From Phormidium sp. CCY1219 (GTDB lineage: Bacteria > Cyanobacteriota > Cyanobacteriia > Cyanobacteriales > Laspinemataceae): DNA of 51,572 nt. The stretch is taken from NCBI RefSeq assembly GCF_035615515.1, contig NZ_JAJENT010000802.1, forward strand, positions 1 through 51,572. The letters are read 5' to 3'. The notes below the pieces were generated by a model, which ran no database searches, was not told where the DNA came from, and worked only from the letters and a program-made list of their open reading frames with translations. Shown piece after piece: positions 6,869-33,900 of this stretch; within the stretch, counting starts at the first letter, position 1, and the number at the start of each line of letters is the position of its first letter. The position numbers and the translations under genes are program-made.

Positions 6869-8956
<2,088 letters not shown>

Positions 8957-8983
8957 TTGCAAACCCCTGGGAAACTCGGGGAT

Positions 8984-9016
8984 CCGGTTAGTAGTGGTGA
9001 GAAACCGGGTTTTTTT
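8984..9016 (+). terminator. putative intrinsic terminator of ligA
   Basis: ccggtt..(13-nt loop)..aaccgg followed by a 7-T run. Confidence 0.4.
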
Positions 9017-9143
9017 ACCGCATATTTACTGATTCGGCAAGCCCACGTCGGGTGCTTGTATCCCCTCGGTGGGAGAATTGCACAACCGAATTGGGGGGTT
9101 TATGCACCCGACGCTGGCTGATTTTAATGCCTCTTGGATTGGG

Positions 9144-15497: not shown

Positions 15498-15775
15498 AGA
15501 AGCACAGGCGATCGCCCGACTATAGCGTTAGTGGCATTGCCCTCCCGCAAATATGCAGCGCCAGAGCGATTTTTCCTCAAACTAGGACAACAGATTAACA
15601 ATCACTAACAAAAAAGGGGGAATGACCCCCGTAGCGATCGCGGGGGGAGTCTGGTAGAGTCAAAAAAAATCAGCAGCACCCTTGCATAATTGGCGACGGA
15701 GTGTCCTACTAAAGTCATAGGCTCCTGAAAAAGCGCTTTCCAGCGGCTCACTTTGTTGTCTAAAGGAGAACGAGA

Positions 15776-19109: not shown

Positions 19110-19149
19110 CATATGCCGCAGTTAAGCGAATTAGCAGGGAACTACAGTT

Positions 19150-21636
19150 ATGGGAAAGGCGATCGTTTTAAAAATAGTGGCGGGTGACTTTGACAGCGGA
19201 TTTCCCGTTGTGTTACAAGTCTTGGACGAGCGCGGCGGTCTTCCTTTGGCAGAACGCTCGGGTTATCTTCCACCGCATCCGCATTTGGAAGGATATTATT
19301 TCAATTGGCAAACTAGCTTTCGCAGTCTGACAAGTCAGAGAGGGAGGGATTGGGGAATCGATCCAGATTTACCCTCTAATGTTTCTAATGAATACGATAT
19401 AGAAGCTTGTCGCGAATATGCCAAATTGCTAGAAAAAAATATGAAAGAGTGGCTGCGGCAGACAGTTGATGCAGGATGTCTAAACATTAGAGAGAGATTG
19501 ATTGAGGATTTGGCGGAAAATAGGGGTAACGTTCGCATAACGATCCAAGCCAATCCCAAATTATGGAAGATGCCTTGGTTGGAGTGGGATATATTGTCAA
19601 AGTATGCCGATTTGGGGATTGGGTTTAGTCTGCTGGAGTATCAGAAACCCGACGCGATCGCTCGCAGTGGAAAGCAAGGTGCTGCCGTGCGAATTTTGGC
19701 GGTGTTTGGCAACAACGAGAATATTGATTTGACACCGGATAAACAGGCGATCGCGCAACTGCCGAATGTCGAGTTAGAACCGTTGGAGCAACCCTCGGCA
19801 GCAGAAGTGATTCAGAAGTTACGAGATAAGAGAGGATGGGATATTTTCTTTTTTGCCGGTCACAGTCAAACCAAAGGCGATGAGGGAATCATTTATATCA
19901 ACGAACGGGAAAGTTTAGAAATCGGACAGTTTAAGGAGGCGTTAAAGGAAGCGATTCGCCAGGGATTGCAATTAGCGATTTTTAATTCTTGCGACGGATT
20001 GGGGTTAGCGGAAAAGCTGGCGGGATTGCACCTGCCGATCGCGATCGTGATGAAAGAACCCGTGCCCGATCGGGTAGCGCAGCGCTTTTTAACAGAGTTT
20101 TTGAAGGAATATGCATCGGGAGCGTATTTATATACGGCGGTGAGGCAAGGGCAAAAATGTTTAGAAGAATTTATCGATTTACCGGGATGTACCGGGTTGC
20201 CGATCGTCTGTCAGAATCCGGCTGAAGTGCCGCCGACATGGGAGGAGTTGCGGGGTAGGGAAAGGGGAAGTGTATTGATTCCCGAATCGATAGAGATAAG
20301 CGATGCCGGAACTATTTTCCGCGATCGCGAAAAGCAAGTGCCGGATGAACTCACTGGTTCCTCAGTTCGCGATCGTAAAATTGTATGGAGAAAACTGGGT
20401 CGCTCATTAGCTGTGAGTTTTGCGATCGGGCTGTTTGTCCTCAGCGCACAATGGCAAGGAAAACTTGAAACCTGGGAACTGCAAGCCTTTGACCATTTAA
20501 TGAGGCAGCTTCCCGTGGAAGACATAGATCGCAGGCTTTTAATTGTGGGAGCCGATGAAACGGATTTGAGCTTGTATGGACACCCTTTACCGGATGCTAT
20601 TTTAGCAGAAGTTTTAGAAAAAATCAATGAGTATCAACCTGCGGCAATTGGGTTAAATATTATTCGCGATCGTCCAGTGGAAAACAGAAATTATCCCGGC
20701 GAACATAACGCTTTCCTGACTCAGATAAATACTTCATCAAAAAATGTGATTTTAGTCTGTTCTATCGGAAATGACTTAGACAGTAGCACAGAGCCTTTAC
20801 CAGGACTGGTGGATAGCGAGCGACAAGTGGGATTTATTGATGTGTTTGACGATCGTGATTTAGCCCTGGACAATCGCTTACGTCGCTATCTCTTATATCG
20901 CAGTGATAATCCAGTTCCCGAGCCTACGAAATGTCATACTCCTTATTCTTTAGTTTGGCATGTAGTGGAGCGTTATTTCCAACATCATCACTCTATTGAC
21001 GTGACCCTATCCCATAGCCACTCAAAATTTGGCTCAGTTGGGATTCAACGGATCGCAAATCGCAGTGGGGGATACCAGAATTTGGGGGAATATGCTAAAG
21101 GCAATCAAATACTGATTCGTTATCGCCATACTCCGGATCCGAATCAGATCGCTCACCAAATTACCGTGCGAGATGTGTTGGAACAACGCCATTCGTTTAA
21201 ACGATCTCGAATCGAAGGAAATGTTGTTTTGATTGGCATGACCGCTCCAACGTTACAGAAGTCGTTTTCTACCCCTTATGGGAAAATTAGCGGGTTAAAC
21301 ATTCATGCCCATGTAGTGAGCCAGATCCTTAGTACCGTTGAGGGGGAATTGAAGGGCAAAAATAAGCGACCCTCGATTTGGTGGTGGCCTCAATGGGTTA
21401 ATGCACTTTGGGTATTATTATGGTCATCTATTGGTGGAACGATCGTCTGGCGTTTTCAACAACCTTTACAGCGATGGGTAGCCATTAGTGGTGCTATTCT
21501 GATATTATATGGAGTCTGTTTGTTTGCCTTAACTCAAGGAGGCTGGATTCCACTAATACCAACCATTTTAACCCTCCTGACCCCCACCTTTTGCTTGAGT
21601 TTATATACCCTATTCAAGCTGAAGTCGTTTGATTAA
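19150..21636 (+). CDS. CHAT (caspase-like protease) domain fused to a CHASE2 sensor domain: N-terminal cytoplasmic CHAT, TM, periplasmic CHASE2, three C-terminal TMs
   Basis: CHAT His/Cys dyad context DIFFFAGHSQ .. LAIFNSCDGLGLA. TM helix LAVSFAIGLFVLSA. CHASE2 motifs LLIVGADETDLSLYG, VGFIDVFDDRDLALDNRLRRYLLY, VVLIGMTAPTLQKSFSTPYGKISGLNIHAHVVSQIL. A hydrophobic C-terminus gives three helices. Confidence 0.8.
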   Translation: MGKAIVLKIVAGDFDSGFPVVLQVLDERGGLPLAERSGYLPPHPHLEGYYFNWQTSFRSLTSQRGRDWGIDPDLPSNVSNEYDIEACREYAKLLEKNMKEWLRQTVDAGCLNIRERLIEDLAENRGNVRITIQANPKLWKMPWLEWDILSKYADLGIGFSLLEYQKPDAIARSGKQGAAVRILAVFGNNENIDLTPDKQAIAQLPNVELEPLEQPSAAEVIQKLRDKRGWDIFFFAGHSQTKGDEGIIYINERESLEIGQFKEALKEAIRQGLQLAIFNSCDGLGLAEKLAGLHLPIAIVMKEPVPDRVAQRFLTEFLKEYASGAYLYTAVRQGQKCLEEFIDLPGCTGLPIVCQNPAEVPPTWEELRGRERGSVLIPESIEISDAGTIFRDREKQVPDELTGSSVRDRKIVWRKLGRSLAVSFAIGLFVLSAQWQGKLETWELQAFDHLMRQLPVEDIDRRLLIVGADETDLSLYGHPLPDAILAEVLEKINEYQPAAIGLNIIRDRPVENRNYPGEHNAFLTQINTSSKNVILVCSIGNDLDSSTEPLPGLVDSERQVGFIDVFDDRDLALDNRLRRYLLYRSDNPVPEPTKCHTPYSLVWHVVERYFQHHHSIDVTLSHSHSKFGSVGIQRIANRSGGYQNLGEYAKGNQILIRYRHTPDPNQIAHQITVRDVLEQRHSFKRSRIEGNVVLIGMTAPTLQKSFSTPYGKISGLNIHAHVVSQILSTVEGELKGKNKRPSIWWWPQWVNALWVLLWSSIGGTIVWRFQQPLQRWVAISGAILILYGVCLFALTQGGWIPLIPTILTLLTPTFCLSLYTLFKLKSFD

Positions 21637-21652: not shown

Positions 21653-22432
21653 GTGTTTCTATTTTCTATGATGAAACTGCTGATTCACTTGTTATTTGCG
21701 AGCGTCATTGCTCTTGCCAGTATGCTGAGGCTCCCTGCTTCCATGAGTACGGAAATGGGGGGACAACAAGTAGCCCAAGAGACAGAACCAACAGATCCAG
21801 GAACACCAAAAGGAACATCTGAACCAGCGGGAACCCGACCCGAATCAACTTGTCCGCCAACGGAAACACCTCTAACAGCCATTAATCATGGAAACGAGAG
21901 TGATTTTACCCTAGCGGAATATCCGATTTTTTTCTTTTATAATCCTTATTCCCGCGAAAATCTGGATGCCATTGAATTTTCCCTCTATGACAGAGCCGAA
22001 CGCCGCACTATTTATAGAACTGAGATAGAACCCCGTGAAAATCCAGGAATTATCCAACTGAGGATTCCCGAACAGGCTGATTATGGCTTAGAGGTTAATC
22101 AAACCTATCGGTGGTATCTTACCGCCTATTGTTCCGAACGCCGTACTGATGGCCCGGATGTGGAAATTAACGGCTGGATTCATCGCAAACCGATGACGGA
22201 ACAACTGGAGGCTGAGCTAGAAAATCCCTCGATTCCCCAATACATCACCTATATGAATGAGGGAATTTGGTACGATGCCGTTAGCCTTCTCGCCCAAAGT
22301 TATGCATCTAATCCACAGAACCAAACATTTAAAGAAGCGTGGGAGAATTTGTTGCAAGCGTTAGGTAGAGAACACTTGAGTCAAGAGCCATTGATTAACC
22401 CGGTGGTGAGTGGAGGAGAGGCAGACGAGTAA
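21653..22432 (+). CDS. secreted protein, DUF928-like (tentative)
   Basis: Signal peptide MMKLLIHLLFASVIALASM. About 230 aa remain in the mature part. It lies 16 nt after the CHAT-CHASE2 gene. Confidence 0.45.
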   Translation: MFLFSMMKLLIHLLFASVIALASMLRLPASMSTEMGGQQVAQETEPTDPGTPKGTSEPAGTRPESTCPPTETPLTAINHGNESDFTLAEYPIFFFYNPYSRENLDAIEFSLYDRAERRTIYRTEIEPRENPGIIQLRIPEQADYGLEVNQTYRWYLTAYCSERRTDGPDVEINGWIHRKPMTEQLEAELENPSIPQYITYMNEGIWYDAVSLLAQSYASNPQNQTFKEAWENLLQALGREHLSQEPLINPVVSGGEADE

Positions 22433-22542: not shown

Positions 22543-25359
22543 TTATCGCCAATTTCCGACTAAAATGTAAGGTGCCCAAGATTTGGGGTTTTGATACTTG
22601 AGAGTTTTTAAAAGAGCTTTTTGAGCGCGATGAAGTGCCTCAGCTTTCGTGACTCCCCTTTCGATGAATTCCAAATAAAACTGTTTCATCAGTTGATTGG
22701 TTGAGTCATCCTGAACTCGCCAAAGGGTAGCAAGGGTACTGCGAGTTCCGGCTCGGACTGCTAACCCGGCTAATCCTAAAGTAGCGCGGTTATCCCCATC
22801 GGCGGTTTTACAGGCACTCAAAACGAGTAATTCAATCGTGCTAGAGGGAGTGCGATCGCGAAGCAGTCTATCAAATTCGTTAGGTCGGATTAATTGACCA
22901 GTGGAGTTTGCTGAACCATAAACCAAGATATAAGTATTCTGTGGATTTGAACTAAATTGTCCATGAGTTGCCATGTGGACGATAGAAAACGATCCGATAT
23001 TTAACTTTTGTTTGAGTCGGGGCTGGGTAAACTCTGAGTTTAACAAAATTTGAGTCGAAACTAGATTGCTAATACTTTCTAGTTCAGTGCGGACATCTAG
23101 GGGTTGAAAGTTTTTATCTTCTACTGTTAGAGCTTCAGTAACTCCGGTTGCCAATACGCTGAGTTGGGCTGACTCTTGTTCTAAATCGAAAGTTTGTAAA
23201 TTTGGCAATAGAGCAATCGCATAATCCTTTTCCACTAAATATTTTTCGGTTTGGCGATCGTATAATGCTGCGATGGGAATATTTTTTAACTCCCCATCCA
23301 AGACAAAAACTAGGGTTTTGAGTTCAGCGCTAGTTTCTAAGGCGGGTTCTAGGGGTTGGATTAACCAGCGATAAAGATTATCAGAGTTCTCTAACAGATC
23401 TTCCAATGATGAAGGGTTGGCTAGTTTACGTCGGAGTGTTGCGACATTCTCTTGCACTTCTGCCCGAGGAATGGGAATCATCCGACGTTCTAATGATTGT
23501 TGGGGTAATTTAAACAAAACTTCTATCCGATTTGGCAAGAGAATCGGATAAATGAGGGCAGCATCTCGGGTAATCTCATTGAGCGATCGCTCAATTCGAG
23601 CCGATGAATCCAGCGATCGCCCGGCGTTAGAAACGGCTAGATTGCATTGCAGGAAGTTTTCGAGTTCAGCGAGTTGCAGCGCATCAATAAACTGAATTGC
23701 ATTTTGCAGGCGATCGCGATTTTGGTCAGCGGTTTGTAACAGCAGATCGACAAATTGCCGATACATGGGTTCAACATTATCTCTCAACGAAAACTGCACA
23801 TCGGCATTAACGGCCAATAAATCATTTCGCAGCGAATCTAGGATTTCAACGGCAGCGGTATAGTTACCGATCGCATCTTCTACATTCCCTTCACCCGCTA
23901 ACAACCGTCCCATCTGCCACTGCCACTGATATCTCAACTCTGGCGCATTACTTTGTACCGCTAACTCTAACGCTTCCTGAGTTAACGTTTTCGCTTTCTG
24001 TCTGTTTGGGTTATCTCCCTGCTTTTGCGCTTGTGGTGGCAAGAAAGATTCATAGCGTTTCCCTTGAGTCCCGATCGCATACGATTTTAGTCGCGCATCC
24101 CGTAATGTCTCCGCTTCTGTTACCGCCTGCTGCAATAATCCATCAATTTCTTCCCTCGAGACAAGCGCCAATTCTGCTGTCTCTCCCTGCCCTAATTTTT
24201 CGCACTGCATCAAACTACAGGCTAACTTAATTCGCGCTTCTACCAGTGGTTTACTCAGTTTCATCTCGCTCATCTGAGATTGAATCGCCGCCAATAAGGA
24301 TTGTAATTCTGTGCCTTGAGTTTCCGATTGACGCAGCAAACTGAAGAGATTTAATTGCGCTAGAAGTTTGATGGTAGGTGAAGGCGCGATCGCCAGCGCC
24401 TGGTGGTAATAATTTATTGCGGCTTTTCGATACTCCTCAGCCTCTTGTATCTCTCCATAGTCTTCTTTTTGTTTGGCTAAAGATTGTTGAGTATTAGCTA
24501 GGAAAAATAAGGTCAAGCTTTTTTCTCTCGGCGAATCGATTTGACTGATTAAAACCCAAGTATTCTGTAAAATTTGCTCCGATGCATCAAGCTGCCCGAT
24601 CGCTCGCAAAACATTTCCCAAACTCCGCAATGCGATCGCTTTGAGTTCCGGATTATATTCTCCCGCGAAATGCCGTTGCACCAATTCAATCTCTGACTCG
24701 GTTTCTATTGCATCACAAGACAAATTCTCTTCTGCGCCAACCACTTCCAATAACAGATTACAGGAGCGCCGATAATAGCCCATTTGTTCCAATGCCTGAG
24801 CTTGATTCACCAGTGCCCCGAGTTGTCCTTCTTCATCATTAAGGTGCTGGTATTCTGCTGCGGCATTTTCCCAACTGTCAAACGCGGTTTCTGCGTTTCC
24901 CAAAGCCAATAATAAATGACCTCGAGTATTCAATGCCACTGCACGAGCAATGCGATCGCCTCTTGTTTTTCCCATCCGTGCTAATTGCAGACTGGCCGAG
25001 CTGGCTTTTTCGGCATTGTCCCATTGTTTCAATTTTTGATAAGTTAAGGACAAATAACTCAATGCCAAAGACTGATTTAAGCGGTTGCCGTGTGCCGCAT
25101 AAAAATCCGCCGCTTGTTGGAGTGTTTCTGCTGCTTCAGAATAGAGATTGCGACGATAGAGTTCCCTCCCCCTTTCCATCAGTTGTTGGGGCGTAGCGGA
25201 TTGCGAGATAAGCTGGGACACTTCCCATGAGTGCCCTATCTGCAATCCGGGGATGCCGAGGGCGAATATTACCCCCAACATCCCTAACAGGAAGAATCTC
25301 AACCCCCGTTTCAGAACGGATTCCACCTGACGGAAAAATACACCCCATTTTCTTGCCAC
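22543..25359 (-). CDS. TPR-repeat CHAT-domain protease with an N-terminal signal anchor
   Basis: N-terminal TM (FFLLGMLGVIFALGIPGL). Several TPR units (YSEAAETLQQAADFYAAHGN..). C-terminal CHAT (SIVHMATHGQF .. LLVLSACKTADG). Confidence 0.85.
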   Translation of the reverse strand: MARKWGVFFRQVESVLKRGLRFFLLGMLGVIFALGIPGLQIGHSWEVSQLISQSATPQQLMERGRELYRRNLYSEAAETLQQAADFYAAHGNRLNQSLALSYLSLTYQKLKQWDNAEKASSASLQLARMGKTRGDRIARAVALNTRGHLLLALGNAETAFDSWENAAAEYQHLNDEEGQLGALVNQAQALEQMGYYRRSCNLLLEVVGAEENLSCDAIETESEIELVQRHFAGEYNPELKAIALRSLGNVLRAIGQLDASEQILQNTWVLISQIDSPREKSLTLFFLANTQQSLAKQKEDYGEIQEAEEYRKAAINYYHQALAIAPSPTIKLLAQLNLFSLLRQSETQGTELQSLLAAIQSQMSEMKLSKPLVEARIKLACSLMQCEKLGQGETAELALVSREEIDGLLQQAVTEAETLRDARLKSYAIGTQGKRYESFLPPQAQKQGDNPNRQKAKTLTQEALELAVQSNAPELRYQWQWQMGRLLAGEGNVEDAIGNYTAAVEILDSLRNDLLAVNADVQFSLRDNVEPMYRQFVDLLLQTADQNRDRLQNAIQFIDALQLAELENFLQCNLAVSNAGRSLDSSARIERSLNEITRDAALIYPILLPNRIEVLFKLPQQSLERRMIPIPRAEVQENVATLRRKLANPSSLEDLLENSDNLYRWLIQPLEPALETSAELKTLVFVLDGELKNIPIAALYDRQTEKYLVEKDYAIALLPNLQTFDLEQESAQLSVLATGVTEALTVEDKNFQPLDVRTELESISNLVSTQILLNSEFTQPRLKQKLNIGSFSIVHMATHGQFSSNPQNTYILVYGSANSTGQLIRPNEFDRLLRDRTPSSTIELLVLSACKTADGDNRATLGLAGLAVRAGTRSTLATLWRVQDDSTNQLMKQFYLEFIERGVTKAEALHRAQKALLKTLKYQNPKSWAPYILVGNWR

Positions 25360-28300
25360 GTTCTGTCCCTCGAATCAATCTCAACTAAAGGTAGACCCCA
25401 GTCTAACCGAGCAGAGAAGTCATTCCCCAGTTGCAATTGTAAACCCAATCCGGTGGAAAGTAACGTATTTTTATCCGGGTTGGCGCGATCGCCTTCATCC
25501 CAGTTCCACCCCACCCCCAAATCCACAAAGGGAATCACCTGCAAACTGCCTTGCAACTGGGGAAACTGGACAATCGGATATTGTAACTCTACCGAAGCAA
25601 AGGCCCCATTATCCACCAGTAATGCATCTTGGCGATAGCCCCGCACGCTATTGAATCCACCGACGCTAAACTGTTCTAATGGCAGTAGGGAATTCGTCGC
25701 TAACTGGATATCTCCGCGCAGGATGAGTAACGGATCTGTGCCCCCTGTTACGCCTAAACCGTCTAACCGACGCACCCACTGTCCCTGTCCCCGCCACGCC
25801 AAAAATCGGCTATCGGGTTCGTTGTCATTTACGGTGGCATCAAACCATCCGACACCCAAACTGAATTCGGACCGGGCGGCAAAGATTTGTTGACTGTCTT
25901 GCCATAAGGCATCTTGAAAGAATCGAATGGCAGAAACGCGGGTTTCACCGTTGTTGTTTGCGCCGGGGGAAAGGGGGAAATCTACGCCTAATAAAGAGGT
26001 TTCGCTTTCCCGACGCGAGGCGGTGATTCCTAATGCCAATTCGGTTCGAATTAAGTTGCTGGCATCTTGCAGGGATTGGTTGGGAGATTTGGGAATAATC
26101 CGTTGAATAATGGGTTGACGATAGCTGAGTTCGTAGGTGCGAGAATTCGCTTCGATATCCACTTCATCGAAAGGGGGTTCGACGATTTTGCTGTCGCCTG
26201 TGCTGTAGCGGAAAGTGAGGGTGCCATTGTTAGGGGTGAGGGGGAGGGCATACCCGAAATCTAAGTTGTTACTGCCATCGGTATTGGCATAGTTGAAGGT
26301 GGCAATGTCACCGAGTCCTAACAAATTGTATTGTGTGAGTTGCGCTTGACGACGCAAACTGCCAACCGAGGGCGATCGCCCGTTATCAATTGCCAATTGA
26401 GGGCTAAAAAATCGCGCTTTTTCGACGCTGACGGCGAGGAAACTGGTATCGGGTTCGATGCCTGCAGCAAGTTCGGCGGAGATGGTTTCCAGGCGGGGGT
26501 CGAATTGCAGGAGGTAGAGGGATTCTAGGAGGGTGTCGGTATTGACGATATCGCCGGGGTTTAATCCCAGACGGTTTCGCACGTAGGTGGCATATTGGTT
26601 GGTGAGGCGGGAGTTGCCGATGACGCGGATATCTTCGAGACGGTTTTCGATCGCTTGGATGGTGACGACGCGATCGCGCACGATTTGCGGCGGGAGAAAG
26701 GCCCCTGAACCGATATATCCTTGTTGTTCGTAAAAGGTGGCGATCGCTTCTGCTGCTTCCTGAAGTTCGGTAAACGTGAGATTGCGGTTGGTGTAAGGTT
26801 CGGTGATGGCGGCGAGTTGTTCGGGAGAAAGGGCGCTGCTGTCGCGCAGTTCAAATCGCGCTACGGTAAGGGTTTCGGGGACGGAAGCCACGGGAGTGGT
26901 GACAAGGGTTTTCGGTTGTTGTGCCGAGAGACAACCGGGGGAGAGTGAGGATTGATTGGTGAGGGGAGTGGCGGCGTCGGGTGCAATCAGTTCGAGTTCG
27001 CCGCGATCGTTGATTCTCATGCCGGTTGCTTCGATTTTGAGGATGCGGCGAGGTGGTACCGGTGAGGGAGTGTTGGGGAGGGGTTCTTCGGTGGCGGGTG
27101 TTTCCTCCAGTTGCAAGACGCGCCAATCTTCCCATCCCTCCCGAGGGGTGAGGGGATCGGTGGGACTGGCGGGGATGCCCCCTTTGCCGGTTTGGACAAA
27201 TTCGCTGTTTTGGACGATGCGACAGGGATCGCGATCGACGAGGGATGCTACATCTACGATTTCGTCTTCTAATTCGACAACGCCGCGACTGGGGTCGATG
27301 TCGGGAGTGTTGAGGGCAATTTGTCCGCTTAAGGTGGGATCGGTGCGCGAAATGGCGGTAATATCGCTGGTATCGGGGAGGTCTATAGTGGGGTCGAATT
27401 GACTCAAGTCAGCATCTAAAACGTTTTCCAATTCCTCTCGCGATCGCGGTTCTAATCCAAAGATTCCTTCAGCAGTAATATTAATAACGCCACCGCTGCC
27501 ATCAAAGGCATTGGCAGAAATATCGCTATTTTCTAAAGCAGCAATAATCTCGGTATTGATGTTAATATTACCGCCATTTCCAGGTAAATTTGCGGTTCCA
27601 GCAGTAGTGGAAATTTCGCTTTGGCGACGCAGGAACATATTATCGGATTCTACGATAACATTTCCTCCTTCACCGGAGGCAGTTTCTGCGGTGAGTCTTC
27701 CGGTCTCGAGACGGAATTCAGGACTGATAATTTGAAGATTGCCTGCTGCACCTCCGCCTAATGCGGCATCGACGGCTACTTTTGCTCGATCTTCGATATT
27801 TAATTGTTCGGTGGTAATGCTCAAGCTTCCCGCATTCCCCGTTCCGGTGGTGATAACGGTGATGCGACTGGGTAATAAACCGTCTGGATCTCGCGAGGGT
27901 AAGGGTTCAGTTGGGGGGATTGCCGATCGCCCAGTCACTTCAACAGAATCGGCATTAATAATCACAGAACCGCCTTGTCCATTGCCAAAAGTATCGGAGG
28001 AAATTGCTGCACCATCACCGACGATAACGCGATCGGCGGAAACCGTTATATCTCCTGCATCTCCCAGTTGAGCGACGGGGACTCGGGGATCCGGTCGAGA
28101 TTGACTAACTGCACCACTAGGCAATCCATCTGCATCGGTTCCGAGTAATTCTAGGGTTTCTGAAGCGTTTAAATTTAAAATGCCACCGCGTCCGGATCCT
28201 ACGGTGAGGACAGAAATTTGTCCGCCTTCTAACACCGTTAAATTGCGGGTATTGATGTTAATATTGCCGCCGGTAGATGTTCCAGTAGTTAAGGCAGTGA

Positions 28301-29843
28301 TTTCAGCGCGATCGCTAACGATTAACCCTCCCGTGTTGATGGTAATGTTACCTGCTTCTCCGGTTGCATTTGGCGCAACAAAAGCGGCTATTCTGCTCCG
28401 ATTTAATTCTCCACGGGGATTGGTAATGCCGCCACTGATTTCCAGCAATCCTGTATTTTCAATAGTCAAATTTCCGGCATTTCCACTGGCTGATGTGGAG
28501 GTAGAAATCACAGCGCCGTTCAGAATGGTTAAGCGATCGCTGCGAATGGTGATATCTCCCGCAGTTCCCGTTGCTGGAATGGGATCGATCCGCCGGAGTG
28601 CAACAATACTTAACAAGCTGCTCGGGCCGACTGGAGAAGCTCCGCTTAATTCTATTTCGCCAGCGTTAATCTCTAAATTTCCACCCCGTCCTCCAGCATA
28701 GGTACTGGTCGAAATTTGTGCGCCATTTCGGACTGTTAAGCGATCGGCTTCAATTGTTAAATTGCCAGCATCACCCGCTCCTTCCGTTTGATTGAATAAA
28801 CCGGCTGCCAGTGGAGGTGGAGGTTCTGCACCCGCTGGAATATTGGGAGGAATTGGTCGTGGTAAAAAACCACTCACTTCGATTTCTCTTCCTTGAATGG
28901 TTACATCTTGTCCCGGTGCGAAACCATAGGTGCTACTGGTAATTCCTGAATTTTCCACAATCAGGCGATCGCCGCGCACTTGAATCGCACCCCCTCCCCC
29001 GCGTGCATTGGGAAACATTGGCGGCAAACTGCTGGCATCTACCACAGAATTATTGATAACTTGAATGTTACCAAACTGTTCTATTTCCTGATAAGACAAT
29101 GAAAATCCTGTCTCTGCGGGGGCTAAATTGACGGTGCCATTCACCACACCACCCAGTTCGATTCGTCCTTCTAATGCGGCGAGGTTCCCATTATTTAAAC
29201 TAACCTCTCCCCCCACCAAACCCAACGTTTGTCCCGGCGCAACAGCCAACCCTAACGGCGCACCAATGCTATTGACGGGAAATTGTTCGGGAGTTGCTTG
29301 GGATTGATTGATGATTCTGCCGGTATTGCTCTCAAATTGTAATTCTGTAGGAATGCTAATGGTTAAAATGGGTGTAGTTGTGGCAAGGTCGGTGCTAAAC
29401 AAGCTACCATCGGCAAACCCAATCCGATTGGCGGTAGTTGCTAAAAACGATCCACCGATTCGTAATTGAGCGTTGGGTCCAAAAATAATCCCATTGGAAT
29501 TGATTAAAAATAAGTTTGCAAACCCATTGGCACTCAAAATTCCATCTATATTTGAGATTGAATCTCCGGTGATGCGAGAAAAGATATTTTGGATGGCGGG
29601 AGAATTGTTAAAAAAAGCGCTGCCATTAGTGGGGATAGAAAATTCCTGGAAGCTATGGAAGAGATTGCCGCCTCGGATGGTTCCCCCGTTAATCTCGAAG
29701 CGGTTCCCGTCAGAATTGATGAGGGAATTGTCGGGAAGGGTGGTATCGGGGACAATTTGAGGAAATGCTGGAGTAGCGATCGCTACAATCGCTAGAGAAA
29801 AACCGCTCAAAAACCAGCACCCTGAAAACGCATTGGGTTTCAT
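25311..29843 (-). CDS. two-partner-secretion protein carrying both a TpsA-type TPS (haemagglutination-activity) domain with beta-helix passenger and a C-terminal TpsB (ShlB/FhaC-type POTRA + beta-barrel)
   Basis: Signal peptide. TPS domain NGGTIRGGNLFHSFQEFSI..NIFSRITGDSISNIDGILSANGFANLFLINSNGIIFGPNAQL. Long Gly/Asn-rich beta-helix repeats. POTRA (LTFTELQEAAEAIATFYEQQGYI..), then a beta-barrel ending ..YFSVRWNPF. Confidence 0.8.
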   Translation of the reverse strand: MKPNAFSGCWFLSGFSLAIVAIATPAFPQIVPDTTLPDNSLINSDGNRFEINGGTIRGGNLFHSFQEFSIPTNGSAFFNNSPAIQNIFSRITGDSISNIDGILSANGFANLFLINSNGIIFGPNAQLRIGGSFLATTANRIGFADGSLFSTDLATTTPILTISIPTELQFESNTGRIINQSQATPEQFPVNSIGAPLGLAVAPGQTLGLVGGEVSLNNGNLAALEGRIELGGVVNGTVNLAPAETGFSLSYQEIEQFGNIQVINNSVVDASSLPPMFPNARGGGGAIQVRGDRLIVENSGITSSTYGFAPGQDVTIQGREIEVSGFLPRPIPPNIPAGAEPPPPLAAGLFNQTEGAGDAGNLTIEADRLTVRNGAQISTSTYAGGRGGNLEINAGEIELSGASPVGPSSLLSIVALRRIDPIPATGTAGDITIRSDRLTILNGAVISTSTSASGNAGNLTIENTGLLEISGGITNPRGELNRSRIAAFVAPNATGEAGNITINTGGLIVSDRAEITALTTGTSTGGNININTRNLTVLEGGQISVLTVGSGRGGILNLNASETLELLGTDADGLPSGAVSQSRPDPRVPVAQLGDAGDITVSADRVIVGDGAAISSDTFGNGQGGSVIINADSVEVTGRSAIPPTEPLPSRDPDGLLPSRITVITTGTGNAGSLSITTEQLNIEDRAKVAVDAALGGGAAGNLQIISPEFRLETGRLTAETASGEGGNVIVESDNMFLRRQSEISTTAGTANLPGNGGNININTEIIAALENSDISANAFDGSGGVINITAEGIFGLEPRSREELENVLDADLSQFDPTIDLPDTSDITAISRTDPTLSGQIALNTPDIDPSRGVVELEDEIVDVASLVDRDPCRIVQNSEFVQTGKGGIPASPTDPLTPREGWEDWRVLQLEETPATEEPLPNTPSPVPPRRILKIEATGMRINDRGELELIAPDAATPLTNQSSLSPGCLSAQQPKTLVTTPVASVPETLTVARFELRDSSALSPEQLAAITEPYTNRNLTFTELQEAAEAIATFYEQQGYIGSGAFLPPQIVRDRVVTIQAIENRLEDIRVIGNSRLTNQYATYVRNRLGLNPGDIVNTDTLLESLYLLQFDPRLETISAELAAGIEPDTSFLAVSVEKARFFSPQLAIDNGRSPSVGSLRRQAQLTQYNLLGLGDIATFNYANTDGSNNLDFGYALPLTPNNGTLTFRYSTGDSKIVEPPFDEVDIEANSRTYELSYRQPIIQRIIPKSPNQSLQDASNLIRTELALGITASRRESETSLLGVDFPLSPGANNNGETRVSAIRFFQDALWQDSQQIFAARSEFSLGVGWFDATVNDNEPDSRFLAWRGQGQWVRRLDGLGVTGGTDPLLILRGDIQLATNSLLPLEQFSVGGFNSVRGYRQDALLVDNGAFASVELQYPIVQFPQLQGSLQVIPFVDLGVGWNWDEGDRANPDKNTLLSTGLGLQLQLGNDFSARLDWGLPLVEIDSRDRTWQENGVYFSVRWNPF

Positions 29844-30122: not shown

Positions 30123-30797
30123 TTACACCGGTTCCGGGTCAATCCCTAATTCCCGCAGTCGCGCCTCCAACTGTTGGATGCGCTGTTGCGCTGCTTGCGC
30201 TTGTTGTTCTGCCTCTTGCGCTCGGCGATCGAGTTCGATGGGAGTTAAAAATCGTCGTCCATCGGGACGATAAATTTCCAATCCGCTTTCGGTCATTTCA
30301 AAGCGAATTCCCAGACGCGGTGACACCCACCCATTCATCTCTTCAATAACCGTTAATTTATTGTCAGAACGCTGCCAGCCGTTTAAATCGATGCGTTCTG
30401 GATCGTAGAGATAATACTCTTCTACCCCATAGCGATCGTAAAATTGCAATTTTTTCGCCATTTCCTTCAAAGTGTTGCCGGGGGATAAGACTTCAAACAC
30501 CACTTGCGGGGGGATATCCTCCTCTTCCCATTGTTTGTAAGAGCCTCTTTTGCCTTTAGGACGGCCAAACACCACCAAGGCATCGGGAGCTTGACAAAGT
30601 TTATTCTTTCCCTCCACAGGATACCATAGCAAATCCCCGGCTACAAAAACATCGGCATTGTCAGCAAACAGGATTTCTAAATTTTCTTTAATGACGACAA
30701 TCCAAGTAAACTGCTCGGTGTTTTCTGCCATTGGTTTGCCGTCACTTTCGGGATAGATAATCTCTGACTTTGGGGAAGCTTCAAGTTTTTGGCTCAT
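30123..30797 (-). CDS. Uma2-family (DUF820) putative endonuclease
   Basis: 224 aa. ..YPESDGKPMAEN..DLLWYPVEG..PDALVVFG..QVVFEVLSP.. is typical Uma2 (PD-(D/E)xK-like), and it ends in a coiled-coil tail. Confidence 0.85.
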   Translation of the reverse strand: MSQKLEASPKSEIIYPESDGKPMAENTEQFTWIVVIKENLEILFADNADVFVAGDLLWYPVEGKNKLCQAPDALVVFGRPKGKRGSYKQWEEEDIPPQVVFEVLSPGNTLKEMAKKLQFYDRYGVEEYYLYDPERIDLNGWQRSDNKLTVIEEMNGWVSPRLGIRFEMTESGLEIYRPDGRRFLTPIELDRRAQEAEQQAQAAQQRIQQLEARLRELGIDPEPV

Positions 30798-30951: not shown

Positions 30952-33900
30952 TTAAGGTAAAGCTTCTACAGTAACCTCTACGAATCCAGCACTTCCTCCC
31001 GAACCGGAACCGGAATTCAATACTGTCGGTTCTCCATCAATAATCGCAGCAGAAATCCAGTCATTCGTTCCCGCTATCCGATACCACAAGGAGCTAGACT
31101 GTCCTAACTCTGCGGAATAATCCACAAAGTCACCTTCCGTCCATTTGTCAAAGGTTAAGTTCGTTCCGTAGGGATATTCATTAACTTTTGGAAAACTGGT
31201 TCCTGGGCCAGAACGGACATTCGCCCCAATGGTTGATAGGGTACTTCCGGTAAAGTTAACTGTTTCCCATGATAGATCGAACTCTGCACCACCCCGTTCT
31301 TCATAAAAGTCCGCATAGACTTCATAAACTCCATCTTCAGGAACGGTAAAATCAACGACTTTAGCCCCGCCATATTGTTGTTGCCATTGATTTTGTGGCG
31401 TCATGTAAACCCATTCATTCGTGGTCTTATTTTTCGCGAGTAGCTGGAATCCATCATCCCCGCGTACAAATGCGCGATAGTGGCGACCCGCTTCTAGATT
31501 TTCTTCCGTATAGGCGCGAATGGCAAAGTTATTATCGGGCAAGCGCACATCATTTAACGCCGCAGATTCTCCCCAATTAAAGCTAATCCCTTTTTTACCA
31601 TCAGTGCGAGTATCCGATCCTAAATTAACCACACCGATCGCATTGGTCGGATCTCCACCATTGGCAAAGTAATCTCCCGCCGGTTGATTTCCCAGTTTGC
31701 GATCCCACCAGTAGAATGTGGAGTGCCATTCTGGGGATGGGTTCACTGCATCTTGGAAAAATTGAGCTTCTTCTACTGTAAAGTCAACCACACTATCAAT
31801 CCCTAGCTCGTAATAATCCACATAGAAATCATACTCGCCAGTTTCCGGTACTTTAAAGAAAATGGTTCGAGAAGGCATAGTTGTCTCGCGAGGACGCCAA
31901 TCGGCACCATCTCCTCCTAAGACGACACTATCATCAATCCATTCCCCTGTTTCAACGTTCTTAACCCGGAACCAGACGCCATCATCAGATTGCGTGGTAA
32001 TTTTATACAATTGGCCGGCTTCAAACGTAGTGCGCGTCCAAGCTTCCATTGCAAAATCATCATTTTGCACAGCACTATCGGGACTACCAGTATCCCAATC
32101 TTTGAACAAACTTAGCTTGCCATTTTGAGATTGATTTCCTAGATCGAGAATGGCTGCGGGATTGGTGAAATCGTAGGTACTGCGATCGCTGACATTTTCA
32201 GGAGTGCGATTAATAAACCGGGCATTCCAGTGGGTTGTGGGGATGGCATAGTTGGCAATTTCCACCGTTCCACTCTCATCGGTTCCGATCGTATAAGCAT
32301 CGTCTGCGGTAAGCGTCAGTTCTACTGTTTCATCTTCTTCGTCGAAGAGGGTATCGTAAATCGGATTAATATTAATCGGTGCCGAGTTTTGTCCTGCGCC
32401 AATCGTGACTGTACCTGTTAGCGGTTGATAGTCTTCTCCATTGGTAGCACTACCAGCGATCGCATAATTCACCGTCAGCGGATTTTTGGTATTCCCGGTG
32501 CGCGTTACGGTAAATTGACCTGGAGTGCCATCTTCTGACGCATTGGGTTGCGTCGCAGCAATGGTAACGGTGGGAGGAGTACCGTACAAATTCAGTTGCC
32601 ATGACAACCATTCCCCTTCGATTTGATTGCCTTTTTCGTCGTACACCTCTAACGTCCATTCTCCCAGAGAAGATTCACCCCAATGATGAATTGAGGTAAA
32701 TGTCCAGTGATTCGATCCGGGGTGAACTTCGTAGGTTTTGCCAATCCCATAAGGATCGTCGGGAATCGAGTTCATCAAGCGGGATTCGGTGCCATCGGGG
32801 GACTTGAGAACGATGGTTAAGTCTTTCCAGTCTGCATGGTCGATATCAACCAAAACCTCTGCATGTTCCACGGTGATATCTTTGGCGATGGAGATGGAAT
32901 CCGCCAGTGCTTCGTTATCTCGGATTTCACTGAGGACATTTTTCAGTTTATTCTTGCCGCTGACTTTGATTTCTTCTCCCACTGTGGTCCAATCTTTCGC
33001 CGCCGTCACCGCCGCTACCGGATCTACTGCACCAAATCCATAGTGCTCATTGATGTGATATCCTCCGCCATTCTGCTGCCAATCGGGATGAGTGTTATCG
33101 GTTTTATAGGCGGTTTTGGCGAGGATATGCTGCACGTCTCGTGAGGTTAAATTGGGATTGGCTTCTAACATTAAGGCAATCACACCGGAAACAAACGGTG
33201 CCGCCGCCGATGTGCCGCCAAAGTCAGTCACCCTGCGCTGATTGAGTGCGATCGCAGTGGTGGTAATTCCCTCTCCATCCCCAGTTCCACTATCAGAGTA
33301 TGCTACCACAAATGGTGCTTGGGTGCTATATTCCGAAAGAATGCCTTCGCGAGAAATGGCACCGACAGGAATTACGGCGCGAGAATTGGCTAAATTATTG
33401 TAGTTGACATGACCAATTTCTGCGCCATCATTTCCCACGGAGAATACATAATTATTCCCTAGTCCATTTCGACCGAATTTAAACCCAGAGTCTAAGGCAG
33501 CGATCGCCAGGGGAAGTTGCCGCATATATTGCGGCCCCCAGCTATTATTAAACACATCAATTTCCTGGTTGCGATTTAGGCGTTCTTCGGACTGTTTTGC
33601 ATCAAACAAGGCATCGGCGATCGTATAACCTTGAGAATCATAGCTATAGTTCACGGGGTCGATACTTCCAATCAGCCTAAGCGCGGCAAATTCCGCTTCT
33701 GGCGCAACTCCAAACACTCTATTTCCGCCTGCTTTACCCACTCCTGTCACTAAAGTGCCATGAGGATTTGCAACTTCCAGTTCCACCGACCAAGACTTTA
33801 TTTGATTGGTAATCTGTTGGAGGAATTTTGGTGGATTTTTGTGGTAAGCATCCACGGAAATTTCTAAGTACCACAATCCCGCAGCATAAGTGCCTTCAAA

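What the first reader, a model, noticed from the sequence alone, without database searches (positions are those of the whole stretch)
25311..29843. Single-polypeptide two-partner secretion system (TpsA passenger fused to TpsB transporter)
The N-terminus has a signal peptide and a canonical TPS/haemagglutination-activity domain, followed by roughly 800 aa of Gly/Asn-rich beta-helix repeats. The C-terminal ~550 aa form a POTRA plus ShlB/FhaC-type 16-strand barrel that ends in the aromatic terminal residue typical of outer-membrane proteins. Classical TPS systems use two separate proteins. Here the TPS domain may be an intramolecular substrate, or the protein may recruit the DUF928-like and TPR-CHAT proteins encoded next to it. 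The gene's stop also overlaps the annotated start of the TPR-CHAT gene by 49 nt.
Basis: partly seen in the sequence, partly recalled or inferred. Interest (0 to 1): 0.55.

Follow-up and report, generated by a model that had tools for sequence, protein, structure and literature searches.

The report
Fused TpsA–TpsB secretion protein, cyanobacterial

Summary
Window 25311..29843 (-) is one uninterrupted 1510-aa ORF. It has a signal peptide, a TPS domain (aa 29-274, Pfam E 8e-63) and a beta-helix to about aa 848. A 140-aa module bounded by two cysteines follows, then two POTRA domains and a 16-strand TpsB barrel with the VRGY loop and a terminal Phe. AlphaFold models of both halves are confident and match solved TpsA proteins (EtpA, HxuA, HMW1) and TpsB proteins (CdiB, FhaC).

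It is not an artefact. The same single ORF occurs in at least 16 species-level genomes of filamentous cyanobacteria, including Laspinema, Oscillatoria, Trichodesmium, Okeania, Phormidium and Lyngbya.

It is not new. Arnold, Zeth and Linke (2010) and Leo et al. (2012) described Trichodesmium Tery_3487 as exactly this gene fusion.

This analysis adds three points. The fusion arose from adjacent tpsA->tpsB genes inside a conserved module, and a signal-peptide-bearing TPR-CHAT caspase-like protease gene overlaps the transporter's 3' end. The cysteine pair resembles the periplasmic anchor of HMW1 and HxuA. In close relatives the passenger is swapped while the anchor and transporter stay conserved.

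The likely function is self-contained type V surface display with a covalent tether. This is inferred, not shown. Verdict: new member of a known, uncharacterised kind.

The parts
29760..29843 (-). Sec-type signal peptide (aa 1-28) of the fused protein
   Evidence: Sequence inspection: basic n-region, hydrophobic core, AFP|Q. AF2 pLDDT is below 50 for aa 1-26. No signal-peptide predictor was available.
29022..29759 (-). TPS (two-partner secretion) domain, aa 29-274, with NLFHSF (aa 60-65) and the NPNGI-type motif INSNGI (aa 114-119)
   Evidence: Pfam PF05860 E 8.1e-63. TIGR01901 E 1.6e-24. Motif positions. Foldseek matches to the HMW1, EtpA, HxuA, FHA and HpmA secretion domains.
27300..29021 (-). 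Beta-helical passenger shaft, aa 275-848, Gly-rich and without cysteine
   Evidence: AF2 gives confident all-beta structure, mostly pLDDT above 90. Foldseek top hits are EtpA and HxuA. There is no Cys here in 50 of 52 relatives. This is the most variable segment among close relatives, 32-39% identity against 89-91% for the barrel.
26877..27299 (-). C-terminal module of the TpsA part, aa 849-989: NTPDIDP, TGKGGIP, a Pro-rich stretch and the hairpin ILKIEATGMRINDRGELELIA, bounded by C874 and C971; proposed anchor and tether
   Evidence: Exactly two Cys, 75-114 aa apart, occur in 50 of 52 fused and stand-alone relatives. Stand-alone TpsAs end at or just after the second Cys. The module is conserved together with the transporter in mosaic relatives. 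AF2 confidence is low except for the hairpin.
26409..26876 (-). Two POTRA domains, about aa 990-1066 and 1067-1145
   Evidence: Pfam POTRA_2 E 1.8e-14. AF2 shows two beta-alpha-alpha-beta-beta units with pLDDT above 90. PDB sequence hits to CdiB, the TpsB4 POTRA and Tlr1789.
25314..26408 (-). 16-strand TpsB/Omp85 barrel, aa 1146-1510, with L6 loop VRGY (aa 1400-1403), FVDLG (aa 1439-1443), RTWQENG and terminal WNPF
   Evidence: Pfam ShlB E 8.9e-24 and Omp85 E 2.1e-12. AF2 gives 16 strands. Foldseek matches CdiB 6wim (E 9.7e-29, TM 0.71) and FhaC (TM 0.68-0.73). Motif positions.
22543..25359 (-). TPR-CHAT caspase-like protease gene overlapping the 3' end of the fused gene; signal-peptide-like N-terminus; catalytic His (ATHG) and Cys (LSAC) present
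   Evidence: Pfam CHAT E 6.3e-56 plus TPR. Sequence. Directly downstream in 18 of 19 fused loci and 16 of 48 split TpsB loci, and all orthologue N-termini are hydrophobic and signal-like.
21653..22432 (+). DUF928 protein with signal peptide, convergent with the fusion gene; recurrent module member
   Evidence: Pfam DUF928 E 3.8e-46. Sequence. Syntenic in L001, L002, L003, L004, L005, L007-L012, L015 and L019-L022.
19150..21636 (+). CHAT-CHASE2 membrane sensor-protease
   Evidence: Pfam CHASE2 E 6.1e-56 and CHAT E 2.6e-09. Sequence with C-terminal hydrophobic segments. Synteny. This type of gene, with an ECF sigma and DUF1822, was described by Kaur et al. 2021.
17649..19109 (+). DUF1822/HEAT protein, module member
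   Evidence: Pfam DUF1822 E 2.4e-81. Synteny.
15776..17659 (+). 627-aa protein with an ECF-type sigma-70 region 4, module member
   Evidence: Pfam Sigma70_r4. TIGR02937 E 1.2e-14. Syntenic in L003, L007, L008, L011, L012, L021 and L022.
30952..36696 (-). Giant subtilase (DUF4114, Peptidase_S8, P-domain, Calx-beta) upstream on the same strand; a frequent neighbour
   Evidence: Pfam. Syntenic in L001-L005, L008, L009, L011, L015 and L019. Absent from the Trichodesmium and Okeania-type loci.

Best explanation
The gene encodes a genuine, evolutionarily stable fusion of a complete TpsA exoprotein to its cognate TpsB transporter. It is a member of the cyanobacterial 'fused TPSS' class first noted as Tery_3487.

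Shown:
- The domain order is signal peptide, TPS domain, about 575 aa of beta-helix, a 140-aa Cys-bounded C-terminal module, two POTRA domains, and a 16-strand barrel with the L6 VRGY motif and a terminal Phe.
- The fusion joins the natural C-terminus of a TpsA to the mature N-terminus of a TpsB.
- It arose from adjacent tpsA->tpsB genes within a conserved operon that continues into an overlapping gene for an exported TPR-CHAT protease.

Inferred mechanism:
1. After Sec export, BAM inserts the C-terminal barrel into the outer membrane.
2. The POTRA domains bind the TPS domain of the same chain, and the cysteine-free passenger is threaded through the protein's own pore.
3. The passenger folds outside into a beta-helical fibre.
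4. The Cys-bounded module, probably disulfide-bonded, stays in the periplasm or the pore, like the anchor domain of HMW1 and HxuA. It is covalently continuous with POTRA1.
5. The result is a one-to-one, permanently tethered surface fibre, functionally an autotransporter built from type Vb parts.

More speculative: the co-translated periplasmic TPR-CHAT cysteine protease cleaves the periplasmic anchor or linker. This would release or remodel the fibre, as LapG does for CdrA. It may be controlled by the neighbouring CHAT-CHASE2, DUF928, DUF1822 and ECF-sigma genes.
For: Architecture and fold:
-.

Not an artefact:
- About 50 of the top 67 database homologues carry TPS+POTRA_2+ShlB in one protein.
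- Single ORFs spanning TPS, helix, C-module and TpsB occur in L001, L002, L007-L016 and L019-L022, from at least 16 species-level genomes. T. erythraeum IMS101 has two copies.

Clean end-to-start junction:
- Stand-alone relatives of 950-990 aa end at the second conserved Cys. In fused forms POTRA1 begins about 20 aa later.

Origin from adjacent genes:
- Plectonema L074 has DUF1822 > CHAT-CHASE2 > DUF928 > TpsA (985 aa) > TpsB (592 aa) > TPR-CHAT.
- Tolypothrix L069 has tpsA overlapping tpsB by 92 nt, followed by TPR-CHAT.

Evidence that the passenger is exported:
- It has a bona fide TPS domain.
- TPS+helix contain no Cys in 50 of 52 relatives, while exactly two Cys bound the C-module. This is the pattern the Guerin et al. 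2017 review describes for type V passengers and for the disulfide-bonded periplasmic anchors of HMW1 and HxuA.
- In the mosaic relatives P0009, P0010 and P0011 the passenger is only 32-54% identical, while C-module, POTRA and barrel are 74-91% identical. This is expected if the helix is surface-exposed and diversifying and the C-module works with the transporter.

CHAT partner:
- It lies directly downstream in 18 of 19 fused loci. All orthologues have signal-peptide-like N-termini, and the catalytic His and Cys are present.
- Precedents exist for protease-mediated TpsA release: LapG on CdrA and SphB1 on FHA.
Against: - No experiment exists for any member of this class. Topology, cis versus trans export, disulfide formation and cleavage are all inferred.
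- The model coordinates could not be inspected, so whether the linker threads the barrel was not tested.
- The linker and C-module are low-confidence in both models.
- No H1-like plug helix was predicted.
- The only experimentally studied 'fused TPS-like' protein, PlpD (type Vd), keeps its passenger in the periplasm (Hanson et al. 2024). Fusion therefore does not guarantee export.
- The CHAT partner also accompanies unfused TpsA/TpsB pairs, and modules that lack a local TpsB (L004, L005). Its role is therefore not specific to the fusion.
- No conserved cleavage motif was seen in the linker.
Confidence: 0.6

Rival explanations
1. Precursor or trans model. The fused chain is a polyprotein cut soon after export, for example by the periplasmic TPR-CHAT protease. 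This yields an ordinary free TpsB that then exports passengers from other chains over many rounds. Alternatively, passengers are exported through the barrels of neighbouring molecules. In either case the fusion only ensures co-expression and stoichiometry.
For: - The junction is an exact TpsA-end to mature-TpsB-start join.
- An exported cysteine protease gene is translationally coupled to the transporter in 18 of 19 fused loci.
- Split versions of the same module work with separate proteins.
- Modules L004 and L005 have the TpsA and CHAT but no local TpsB, which implies trans-acting transporters exist.
- In a strictly cis model the passenger would have to wait unfolded until its own barrel, the last part to be made, is assembled.
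Against: - No conserved cleavage motif was found between C971 and POTRA1.
- CHAT also accompanies unfused pairs that need no un-fusing.
- Classical autotransporters tolerate the same passenger-first order.
- The fusion has been kept across lineages whose proteins are only 35-45% identical. That suggests the covalent link itself is useful.
Confidence: 0.22
2. PlpD-like model. The passenger is not exported. The beta-helix stays in the periplasm attached to an Omp85-type barrel that has another role, such as scaffolding or signalling with the periplasmic TPR-CHAT and DUF928 proteins.
For: - The type Vd prototype PlpD, long taken to be a 'fused TPS', keeps its passenger in the periplasm.
- All conserved partners (TPR-CHAT, DUF928, the CHASE2 domain) appear to face the periplasm.
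Against: - Unlike PlpD, this protein has a high-scoring TPS domain, whose only known role is POTRA-dependent export, and a typical cysteine-free TpsA beta-helix.
- The barrel keeps the TpsB hallmarks: two POTRA domains, VRGY, and structural similarity to FhaC and CdiB.
- Rapid passenger diversification beside a conserved transporter fits surface exposure.
Confidence: 0.1
3. Artefact. A sequencing or assembly frameshift merged separate tpsA and tpsB genes in this window.
For: - Adjacent or overlapping tpsA->tpsB genes exist in relatives such as L069, so one indel could fuse them.
- A clear indel artefact of this kind does occur at the next junction in one metagenome contig, the 2353-aa TPS-TpsB-CHAT ORF in L003.
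Against: - The same in-frame junction, lacking a TpsB signal peptide, is conserved in dozens of independent isolates and MAGs at 35-87% identity, including complete genomes.
- The junction region aligns without gaps to those homologues.
Confidence: 0.02

Closest known systems
[quoted passage not shown] Tery_3487), described by Arnold, Zeth & Linke 2010 (PMC2878562) and cited by Leo, Grin & Linke 2012 (PMC3297439)
   Same: - Same architecture: N-terminal haemagglutinin-like TPS/beta-helix, two POTRA domains and a TpsB barrel in one polypeptide.
- Homologous throughout: T. erythraeum P0062 is 37% identical by BLASTP, with 24-43% identity across segments.
- Same conserved Cys pair.
- A TPR-CHAT gene lies downstream in the T. 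erythraeum locus L014.
   Different: - This window comes from a Laspinema-like organism, with the best hit at 83% identity to Laspinema sp. D1.
- Its locus carries the extended module of DUF928, CHAT-CHASE2, DUF1822, sigma and S8 subtilase. That module is absent from the 20-kb stretch retrieved for Trichodesmium.
- I could not verify which of the two tandem fused ORFs in L014 is Tery_3487.
Classical two-partner secretion (type Vb): FhaB/FhaC, CdiA/CdiB, HMW1/HMW1B, HxuA/HxuB
   Same: - TPS domain, beta-helical cysteine-free passenger, two POTRA domains, a 16-strand barrel with the L6 VRGY motif, and a terminal aromatic residue.
- The C-terminal Cys-bounded module resembles the disulfide-bonded periplasmic anchor of HMW1 and HxuA.
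   Different: - Passenger and transporter are one polypeptide.
- Gene order is A before B.
- No H1 plug helix was predicted. Cyanobacterial TpsBs have a Pro-rich N-terminal region instead.
- The Cys loop is about 97 aa. From my own recollection the HMW1 anchor loop is much shorter; this was not checked here.
Type Vd, PlpD (patatin-POTRA-barrel)
   Same: An N-terminal 'passenger' fused through a POTRA domain to a 16-strand Omp85/TpsB-like barrel. The literature calls it a 'fused two-partner secretion system'.
   Different: - PlpD has a patatin lipase, no TPS domain and usually one POTRA domain.
- Its passenger is now reported to stay in the periplasm, and the protein forms dimers.
- Here the passenger is a true TpsA.
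CdrA/CdrB with the LapG periplasmic cysteine protease (Pseudomonas aeruginosa)
   Same: A TpsA adhesin held at the surface by a periplasmic C-terminal tail that a periplasmic cysteine protease cuts to release it. This gives a working analogy for the exported TPR-CHAT protease encoded with the transporter.
   Different: - LapG is a transglutaminase-like protease controlled by LapD and c-di-GMP. It is not a CHAT/caspase-fold enzyme and is not encoded in the tps operon.
- No cleavage has been shown here.
EACC2-caspase (CHAT)-CHASE2 + ECF sigma + DUF1822 neighbourhoods (Kaur, Iyer, Burroughs, Aravind 2021, PMC8195603)
   Same: The + strand genes at 15776-21636 (sigma-like, DUF1822, CHAT-CHASE2) match that described neighbourhood.
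   Different: In the passages found by term search, that paper does not mention DUF928, TPS proteins or the TPR-CHAT partner. The link between that neighbourhood and a TpsA/TpsB/TPR-CHAT operon rests on the synteny found here.

Membership tests
TpsA exoprotein (type Vb passenger) | N-terminal Sec signal peptide | tested here: met
   By inspection: MKPNAFSGCWFLSGFSLAIVAIATPAFP|Q. No dedicated predictor was available.
TpsA exoprotein (type Vb passenger) | TPS secretion domain with an NPNGI-type motif | tested here: met
   PF05860 E 8.1e-63 and 213 bits against a cutoff of 33.5. TIGR01901 E 1.6e-24. INSNGI at aa 114-119, where the family consensus is INPNGI.
TpsA exoprotein (type Vb passenger) | Right-handed beta-helical, Cys-poor shaft | tested here: met
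   AF2 pLDDT 82.6 with aa 27-848 all-beta. Foldseek matches EtpA, HxuA, HMW1, FHA and HpmA. No Cys in aa 29-848.
Two-partner secretion system (type Vb) as defined | Passenger and transporter are separate polypeptides | tested here: not met
   A single ORF with no stop or frameshift, conserved as a single ORF in at least 16 species.
TpsB transporter (Omp85 superfamily) | Two periplasmic POTRA domains followed by a 16-strand barrel | tested here: met
   AF2 secondary structure gives 2 x beta-alpha-alpha-beta-beta plus 16 strands, mostly pLDDT above 85. Foldseek matches CdiB at E 9.7e-29 and FhaC at TM 0.68-0.73.
TpsB transporter (Omp85 superfamily) | Conserved L6 loop (V/I)RG(Y/F) motif and (F/G)xDxG motif; C-terminal aromatic residue | tested here: met
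   VRGY at aa 1400-1403 lies in the loop between predicted strands 11 and 12. FVDLG at aa 1439-1443. Terminal WNPF.
TpsB transporter (Omp85 superfamily) | N-terminal H1 helix that plugs the pore (as in FhaC and CdiB) | tested here: inconclusive
   No confident helix precedes POTRA1 in either model, and aa 841-987 are mostly below pLDDT 50. Stand-alone cyanobacterial TpsBs show a Pro-rich N-terminal consensus instead.
Fused TPSS, Tery_3487 type (Arnold et al. 2010) | Haemagglutinin-like N-terminal part + two POTRA domains + barrel in one gene product | tested here: met
   Published definition.
Fused TPSS, Tery_3487 type (Arnold et al. 2010) | Sequence homology to the T. erythraeum fused proteins over both halves | tested here: met
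   P0062 (T. erythraeum, 1333 aa) has E 3.3e-227. Per-segment identity is 24-43%, including POTRA and barrel. L014 has two fused ORFs. Identity of either with locus tag Tery_3487 was not verified.
Type Vd (PlpD family) | Patatin-like lipase passenger | tested here: not met
   No patatin hit; the passenger is TPS plus beta-helix.
Classical autotransporter (type Va) | 12-strand C-terminal barrel with an alpha-helical linker and no POTRA domain | tested here: not met
   A 16-strand Omp85-type barrel with two POTRA domains.
Anchored TpsA subgroup (HMW1/HxuA type) | C-terminal domain with a conserved Cys pair | tested here: met
   C874 and C971 are the only Cys in the mature protein. Exactly two Cys in this module in 50 of 52 relatives. 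Feature as described.
Anchored TpsA subgroup (HMW1/HxuA type) | The Cys pair forms a disulfide, and the domain stays in the periplasm or pore and tethers the passenger | not testable with these tools
   Needs biochemistry. Only indirect support is available: the module co-varies with the transporter rather than with the helix.

The most novel reading that the evidence does not exclude
The fused protein may be the outer-membrane end of an undescribed envelope-spanning system that is widespread in filamentous cyanobacteria. In this reading, a variable surface beta-helix (TpsA) is tethered through its transporter (TpsB) by a disulfide-bonded periplasmic anchor. An exported TPR-CHAT caspase-like protease, translationally coupled to the transporter, cuts that anchor. 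The process is wired to an inner-membrane CHAT-CHASE2 sensor-protease, DUF928, DUF1822 and an ECF-type sigma factor. This would be a LapG/LapD-like release or cell-surface-signalling circuit built from caspase-fold proteases. The gene fusion would be one evolutionary solution for fixing the tether. It would also be the first bona fide 'fused type Vb' secretion system, now that PlpD is reported not to export its passenger.
Probability: 0.25. Interest if true: 0.65.

Novelty: new member of a known kind. Interest (0 to 1): 0.4.

Why it matters
The fusion itself is not a discovery. It has been in the type V literature since 2010 and is routinely annotated. It matters for three reasons.

1. No member of this class has been studied. 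Since PlpD's passenger was reported in 2024 to stay in the periplasm, these cyanobacterial proteins are the only candidates for a true single-chain version of two-partner secretion. They are a natural test of cis versus trans recognition between a TPS domain and its POTRA domains.

2. The conserved Cys-bounded module gives a concrete, mutable hypothesis for how TpsA proteins are tethered. The sharp identity break between a variable passenger and a conserved anchor plus transporter adds to it.

3. The near-obligate pairing with an exported caspase-like TPR-CHAT protease was not mentioned in any paper I could find. It suggests regulated proteolysis of surface fibres in multicellular cyanobacteria. 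The frequent linkage to CHAT-CHASE2, DUF928, DUF1822 and a sigma factor points the same way.

Tried and rejected
- **Threading of the linker through the barrel.** Structure prediction returns only confidence and secondary structure, and the coordinates are not exposed in /data.
- **The 2353-aa 'TPS-TpsB-TPR-CHAT' protein P0012.** I considered it as a triple fusion and rejected it. In L003 the reading frame switches inside the normal overlap and deletes the last barrel strand and the terminal Phe. It is an indel, an assembly error or a pseudogene.
- **Conservation of the -49 start of TPR-CHAT as evidence for that start.** Rejected as independent evidence. The (A/G)TG is made by the Thr-Trp codons of the conserved TpsB motif RTWQENG.
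- **Number of fusion events.** The NJ tree of TpsB moieties puts most fused forms apart from stand-alone TpsBs, with one fused clade nested among them. It is midpoint-rooted, distance-based and has no support values, so the question stays open.
- **Failed look-ups.** The look-up of encoding contigs had no record for P0062, P0033, P0041 or P0170.
- **Literature.** Searches for DUF928+CHAT, for the DUF928/DUF1822/CHASE2/CHAT/haemagglutinin terms and for CHAT plus TPS/ShlB terms returned nothing on this module. One search was flooded by genus names and was useless.
- **PADLOC defence models.** No hit for the fused protein or its partners.
- **Internal repeats.** BLASTP self-comparison of the helix found none at E below 1e-3.
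- **Other TPS or TpsB genes.** None in the window, so there is no separate local substrate.
- **DUF928 and TPR-CHAT as TpsB substrates.** Rejected, because neither has a TPS domain.

Full report
**1. Observation**

The window holds a single 4533-nt ORF on the minus strand, 25311..29843, with an ATG start and 1510 codons.

Pfam places these domains:
- a TPS secretion domain at aa 29-274 (E 8.1e-63),
- POTRA_2 at aa 993-1066,
- ShlB at aa 1133-1469,
- Omp85 at aa 1382-1504.

NCBIfam adds the filamentous-haemagglutinin NPXG domain at aa 62-139. The N-terminus looks like a Sec signal peptide and the protein ends in WNPF. No other TPS or TpsB coding sequence occurs in the 51.6-kb window.

**2. Structure**

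I predicted the two halves separately because of the 1200-aa limit.

*Passenger half, aa 1-990 (52-sequence alignment).*
- Mean pLDDT is 82.6 and pTM 0.80, with aa 27-848 confidently all-beta.
- The best PDB matches are TpsA proteins: EtpA, HxuA, and the secretion domains of HMW1, FHA and HpmA.

*Transporter half, aa 841-1510 (76-sequence alignment).*
- Mean pLDDT is 79.8 and pTM 0.73.
- The model shows two beta-alpha-alpha-beta-beta POTRA units and 16 barrel strands.
- The best PDB matches are the TpsB transporters CdiB (E 9.7e-29, TM 0.71) and FhaC (TM 0.68-0.73), ahead of BamA and TamA.
- The Omp85 hallmark VRGY (aa 1400-1403) sits in the predicted L6 loop, and FVDLG follows at aa 1439-1443.

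*The region between the halves, aa 849-989.*
- Confidence is low in both models, except for a short hairpin around aa 935-960.
- No H1-type plug helix is predicted.
- Coordinates are not exposed, so whether the linker threads the barrel could not be examined.

**3. Not an artefact**

- Among the best database homologues, about 50 of the top 67 carry TPS+POTRA_2+ShlB in one protein. Identity ranges from 83% (Laspinema sp. D1) down to about 31%.
- I scanned GTDB species genomes with an alignment of the junction region. It returned 79 loci; all named ones are cyanobacterial, and a few are labelled only 'uncultured bacterium'.
- Single ORFs spanning TPS, helix, C-module and TpsB occur in L007-L016 and L019-L022. 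These come from Laspinema spp., Oscillatoria, Dapis, Okeania, Phormidium willei, P. pseudopriestleyi, Lyngbya CCY1209 and Trichodesmium erythraeum IMS101. The last has two copies in one locus.
- O. acuminata PCC 6304 and Baaleninema simplex carry it too.
- The window organism is Laspinema-like.

**4. Already described**

- Arnold, Zeth and Linke (2010) wrote that the T. erythraeum TPSS proteins, 'e.g. [quoted passage not shown] They described a large N-terminal haemagglutinin-like domain followed by two POTRA domains and the barrel.
[quoted passage not shown]'.
- Heinz and Lithgow (2014) did not list the architecture.
- I found no paper that characterises any member.
- The window protein is homologous to the T. 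erythraeum proteins over both halves.

**5. Anatomy of the junction**

The mature protein has only two cysteines, C874 and C971.

Across 52 fused and stand-alone relatives:
- 50 have exactly two Cys in this module, 75-114 residues apart.
- 50 have none in the TPS domain plus helix.
- None of the fused ones has any in the TpsB part.

Stand-alone relatives of 950-990 aa end at or just after the second Cys. In fused forms POTRA1 starts about 20 residues later, with no TpsB signal peptide in between. The fusion is therefore a clean join of a complete TpsA to a mature TpsB.

The review by Guerin et al. (2017) describes a C-terminal disulfide-bonded globular anchor in HMW1 and HxuA. It stays in the periplasm and locks the TpsA in its TpsB. 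The Cys-bounded module is the obvious counterpart, although it is a much longer loop.

**6. Genomic context and origin**

The gene lies in a conserved module. Gene order in the window is:
- S8 giant subtilase (30952-36696, -)
- Uma2 (30123-30797, -)
- the fusion gene (-)
- TPR-CHAT (22543-25359, -)

Converging on these from the + strand are:
- an ECF-sigma-like protein (15776-17659)
- DUF1822 (17649-19109)
- CHAT-CHASE2 (19150-21636)
- DUF928 (21653-22432)

. The same arrangement recurs in O. acuminata, Baaleninema, several Laspinema genomes and several metagenome contigs.

TPR-CHAT lies directly downstream of the transporter in 18 of 19 fused loci that have enough flank, and in 16 of 48 loci with a stand-alone TpsB.

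Split versions show the ancestry:
- Plectonema L074 has DUF1822 > CHAT-CHASE2 > DUF928 > TpsA (985 aa) > TpsB (592 aa) > TPR-CHAT on one strand.
- Tolypothrix L069 has tpsA overlapping tpsB by 92 nt, followed by an overlapping TPR-CHAT gene.
- Two metagenome loci (L004, L005) keep the module with a 956- or 961-aa TpsA but no local TpsB.

By contrast, a classical cyanobacterial operon in O. acuminata has one TpsB followed by several TpsAs and no CHAT.

The + strand trio matches the EACC2-caspase-CHASE2, ECF sigma and DUF1822 neighbourhood of Kaur et al. 2021. The passages of that paper found by term search do not mention TPS proteins or DUF928.

**7. The TPR-CHAT partner**

- It has the catalytic His (ATHG) and Cys (LSAC).
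- In every orthologue examined it has a signal-peptide-like N-terminus, for example MKIIKLLTIALLSFFLILGINILSPVFA|ESS. It is therefore probably periplasmic or secreted.
However, the start codon at -49 is created by the Thr-Trp codons of the conserved TpsB motif RTWQENG, so its recurrence is not independent evidence.
- A GTG at 25326 (16-nt overlap) is an alternative start. With either start the genes overlap.
- The 2353-aa 'triple fusion' P0012 is a frame switch inside this overlap. It removes the last barrel strand, so I treat it as an error or pseudogene.

**8. Passenger variability**

Three close relatives (P0009, P0010, P0011) compare with the window protein as follows:

| Segment | Identity |
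|---|---|
| Barrel | 89-91% |
| POTRA domains | 83-85% |
| Cys-bounded module | 74-80% |
| TPS domain | 52-54% |
| Helix | 32-39% |

The break falls near aa 848. The passenger has therefore been exchanged or has diverged quickly, while the C-module travels with the transporter. This fits a surface-exposed variable fibre and a C-module that works with the transporter.

**9. Mechanism**

*Shown:* the architecture, the folds, the conservation, the junction and the synteny.

*Inferred from established knowledge of type V secretion:*
1. The protein is exported by Sec.
2. BAM inserts the barrel into the outer membrane.
3. The POTRA domains recognise the TPS domain.
4. The cysteine-free passenger passes through the pore and folds outside.
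5. The Cys-bounded module is retained on the periplasmic side. In the fused form it continues directly into POTRA1.

The product would be a fibre covalently tethered to its own transporter.

*Speculative:* the exported CHAT protease cuts the periplasmic anchor. This is by analogy with LapG acting on CdrA, and the neighbouring subtilase recalls SphB1 acting on FHA.

*Rivals:* early cleavage or trans export, a PlpD-like periplasmic passenger, and artefact. The last is effectively excluded.

**10. Verdict**

The architecture was published in 2010, so this is a new member of a known but uncharacterised kind.

Three points go beyond the cited literature:
- the conserved Cys-bounded anchor-like module,
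- the origin of the fusion within a TpsA>TpsB>TPR-CHAT module,
- the mosaic passenger.

These make the class a tractable model for cis versus trans TPS recognition and for protease-controlled surface fibres.

Interest 0.4.

Noticed in passing
window 25311-25359 (overlap of the fused gene and TPR-CHAT); loci L002, L007-L011, L015, L019, L021, L022, L034, L049, L050, L071, L072: The -49 nt overlap between the TpsB stop and the longest TPR-CHAT ORF recurs in both fused and split systems. Its (A/G)TG start is generated by the Thr-Trp codons (ACR TGG) of the near-invariant TpsB C-terminal motif RTWQENG. The true start, -49 or the GTG at 25326, remains open.
   Followed up: partly
L003 6793-13854 (protein P0012, 2353 aa): An apparent TPS-TpsB-TPR-CHAT single ORF in a metagenome contig. 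It is a frame switch inside the normal overlap that deletes the last barrel strand and the terminal Phe. It is probably an indel, an assembly error or a pseudogene.
   Followed up: yes
Proteins P0009, P0010, P0011 versus window aa 1-1510; locus L007 (Laspinema olomoucense D3b) and L009: Mosaic relatives. The passenger (TPS 52-54%, helix 32-39% identity) is far more diverged than the C-module, POTRA domains and barrel (74-91%) and the flanking TPR-CHAT and DUF928 genes (81-87% in L007). This suggests passenger replacement by recombination with a breakpoint near aa 848.
   Followed up: partly
L004 10001-12871 and L005 10001-12886 (metagenome contigs): The same module (S8 subtilase, two Uma2 genes, TpsA, TPR-CHAT, DUF928, CHAT-CHASE2, DUF1822) with a stand-alone 956- or 961-aa TpsA and no TpsB anywhere in the 20-kb locus. 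The transporter must be encoded elsewhere, or the TpsA is not exported there.
   Followed up: no
L014 (Trichodesmium erythraeum IMS101, NC_008312.1 5360144-5381025), ORFs about 7181-11926 and 15113-19297: Two fused TpsA-TpsB ORFs lie about 3 kb apart on the same strand, with a TPR-CHAT gene between them. Which one is the published Tery_3487 was not determined.
   Followed up: no
window 30952-36696 (-): A 1914-aa protein with DUF4114, Peptidase_S8, proprotein-convertase P-domain, Calx-beta and SH3_3. It is conserved upstream of the TPS gene in many Laspinema, Oscillatoria and Baaleninema-type loci. It is a possible surface maturation protease, by analogy with SphB1 and FHA, but this is untested.
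   Followed up: partly
window 30123-30797 (-): A Uma2-family putative endonuclease lies between the subtilase and the TPS gene. It is also syntenic in L004, L005 and L008, and it hits the PADLOC candidate defence family PDC-S03 (E 1e-9).
   Followed up: no
window 38984-43231 (-) and 43637-45517 (+): A 1415-aa protein with a NACHT N-terminal helical domain (NNH5) and many WD40 repeats, next to a 626-aa Ser/Thr kinase-WD40 protein. These are typical STAND-type conflict or signalling proteins of multicellular cyanobacteria.
   Followed up: no
window 10620-13382 (+): A 920-aa multi-domain regulator with three receiver domains, Trans_reg_C, Hpt and a C-terminal GGDEF diguanylate cyclase.
   Followed up: no
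window 14563-15039 (+): A short ORF (158 aa) with a partial match to the major vault protein shoulder domain (PF11978, E 9e-8, last 34 profile positions only). Possibly a gene fragment.
   Followed up: no
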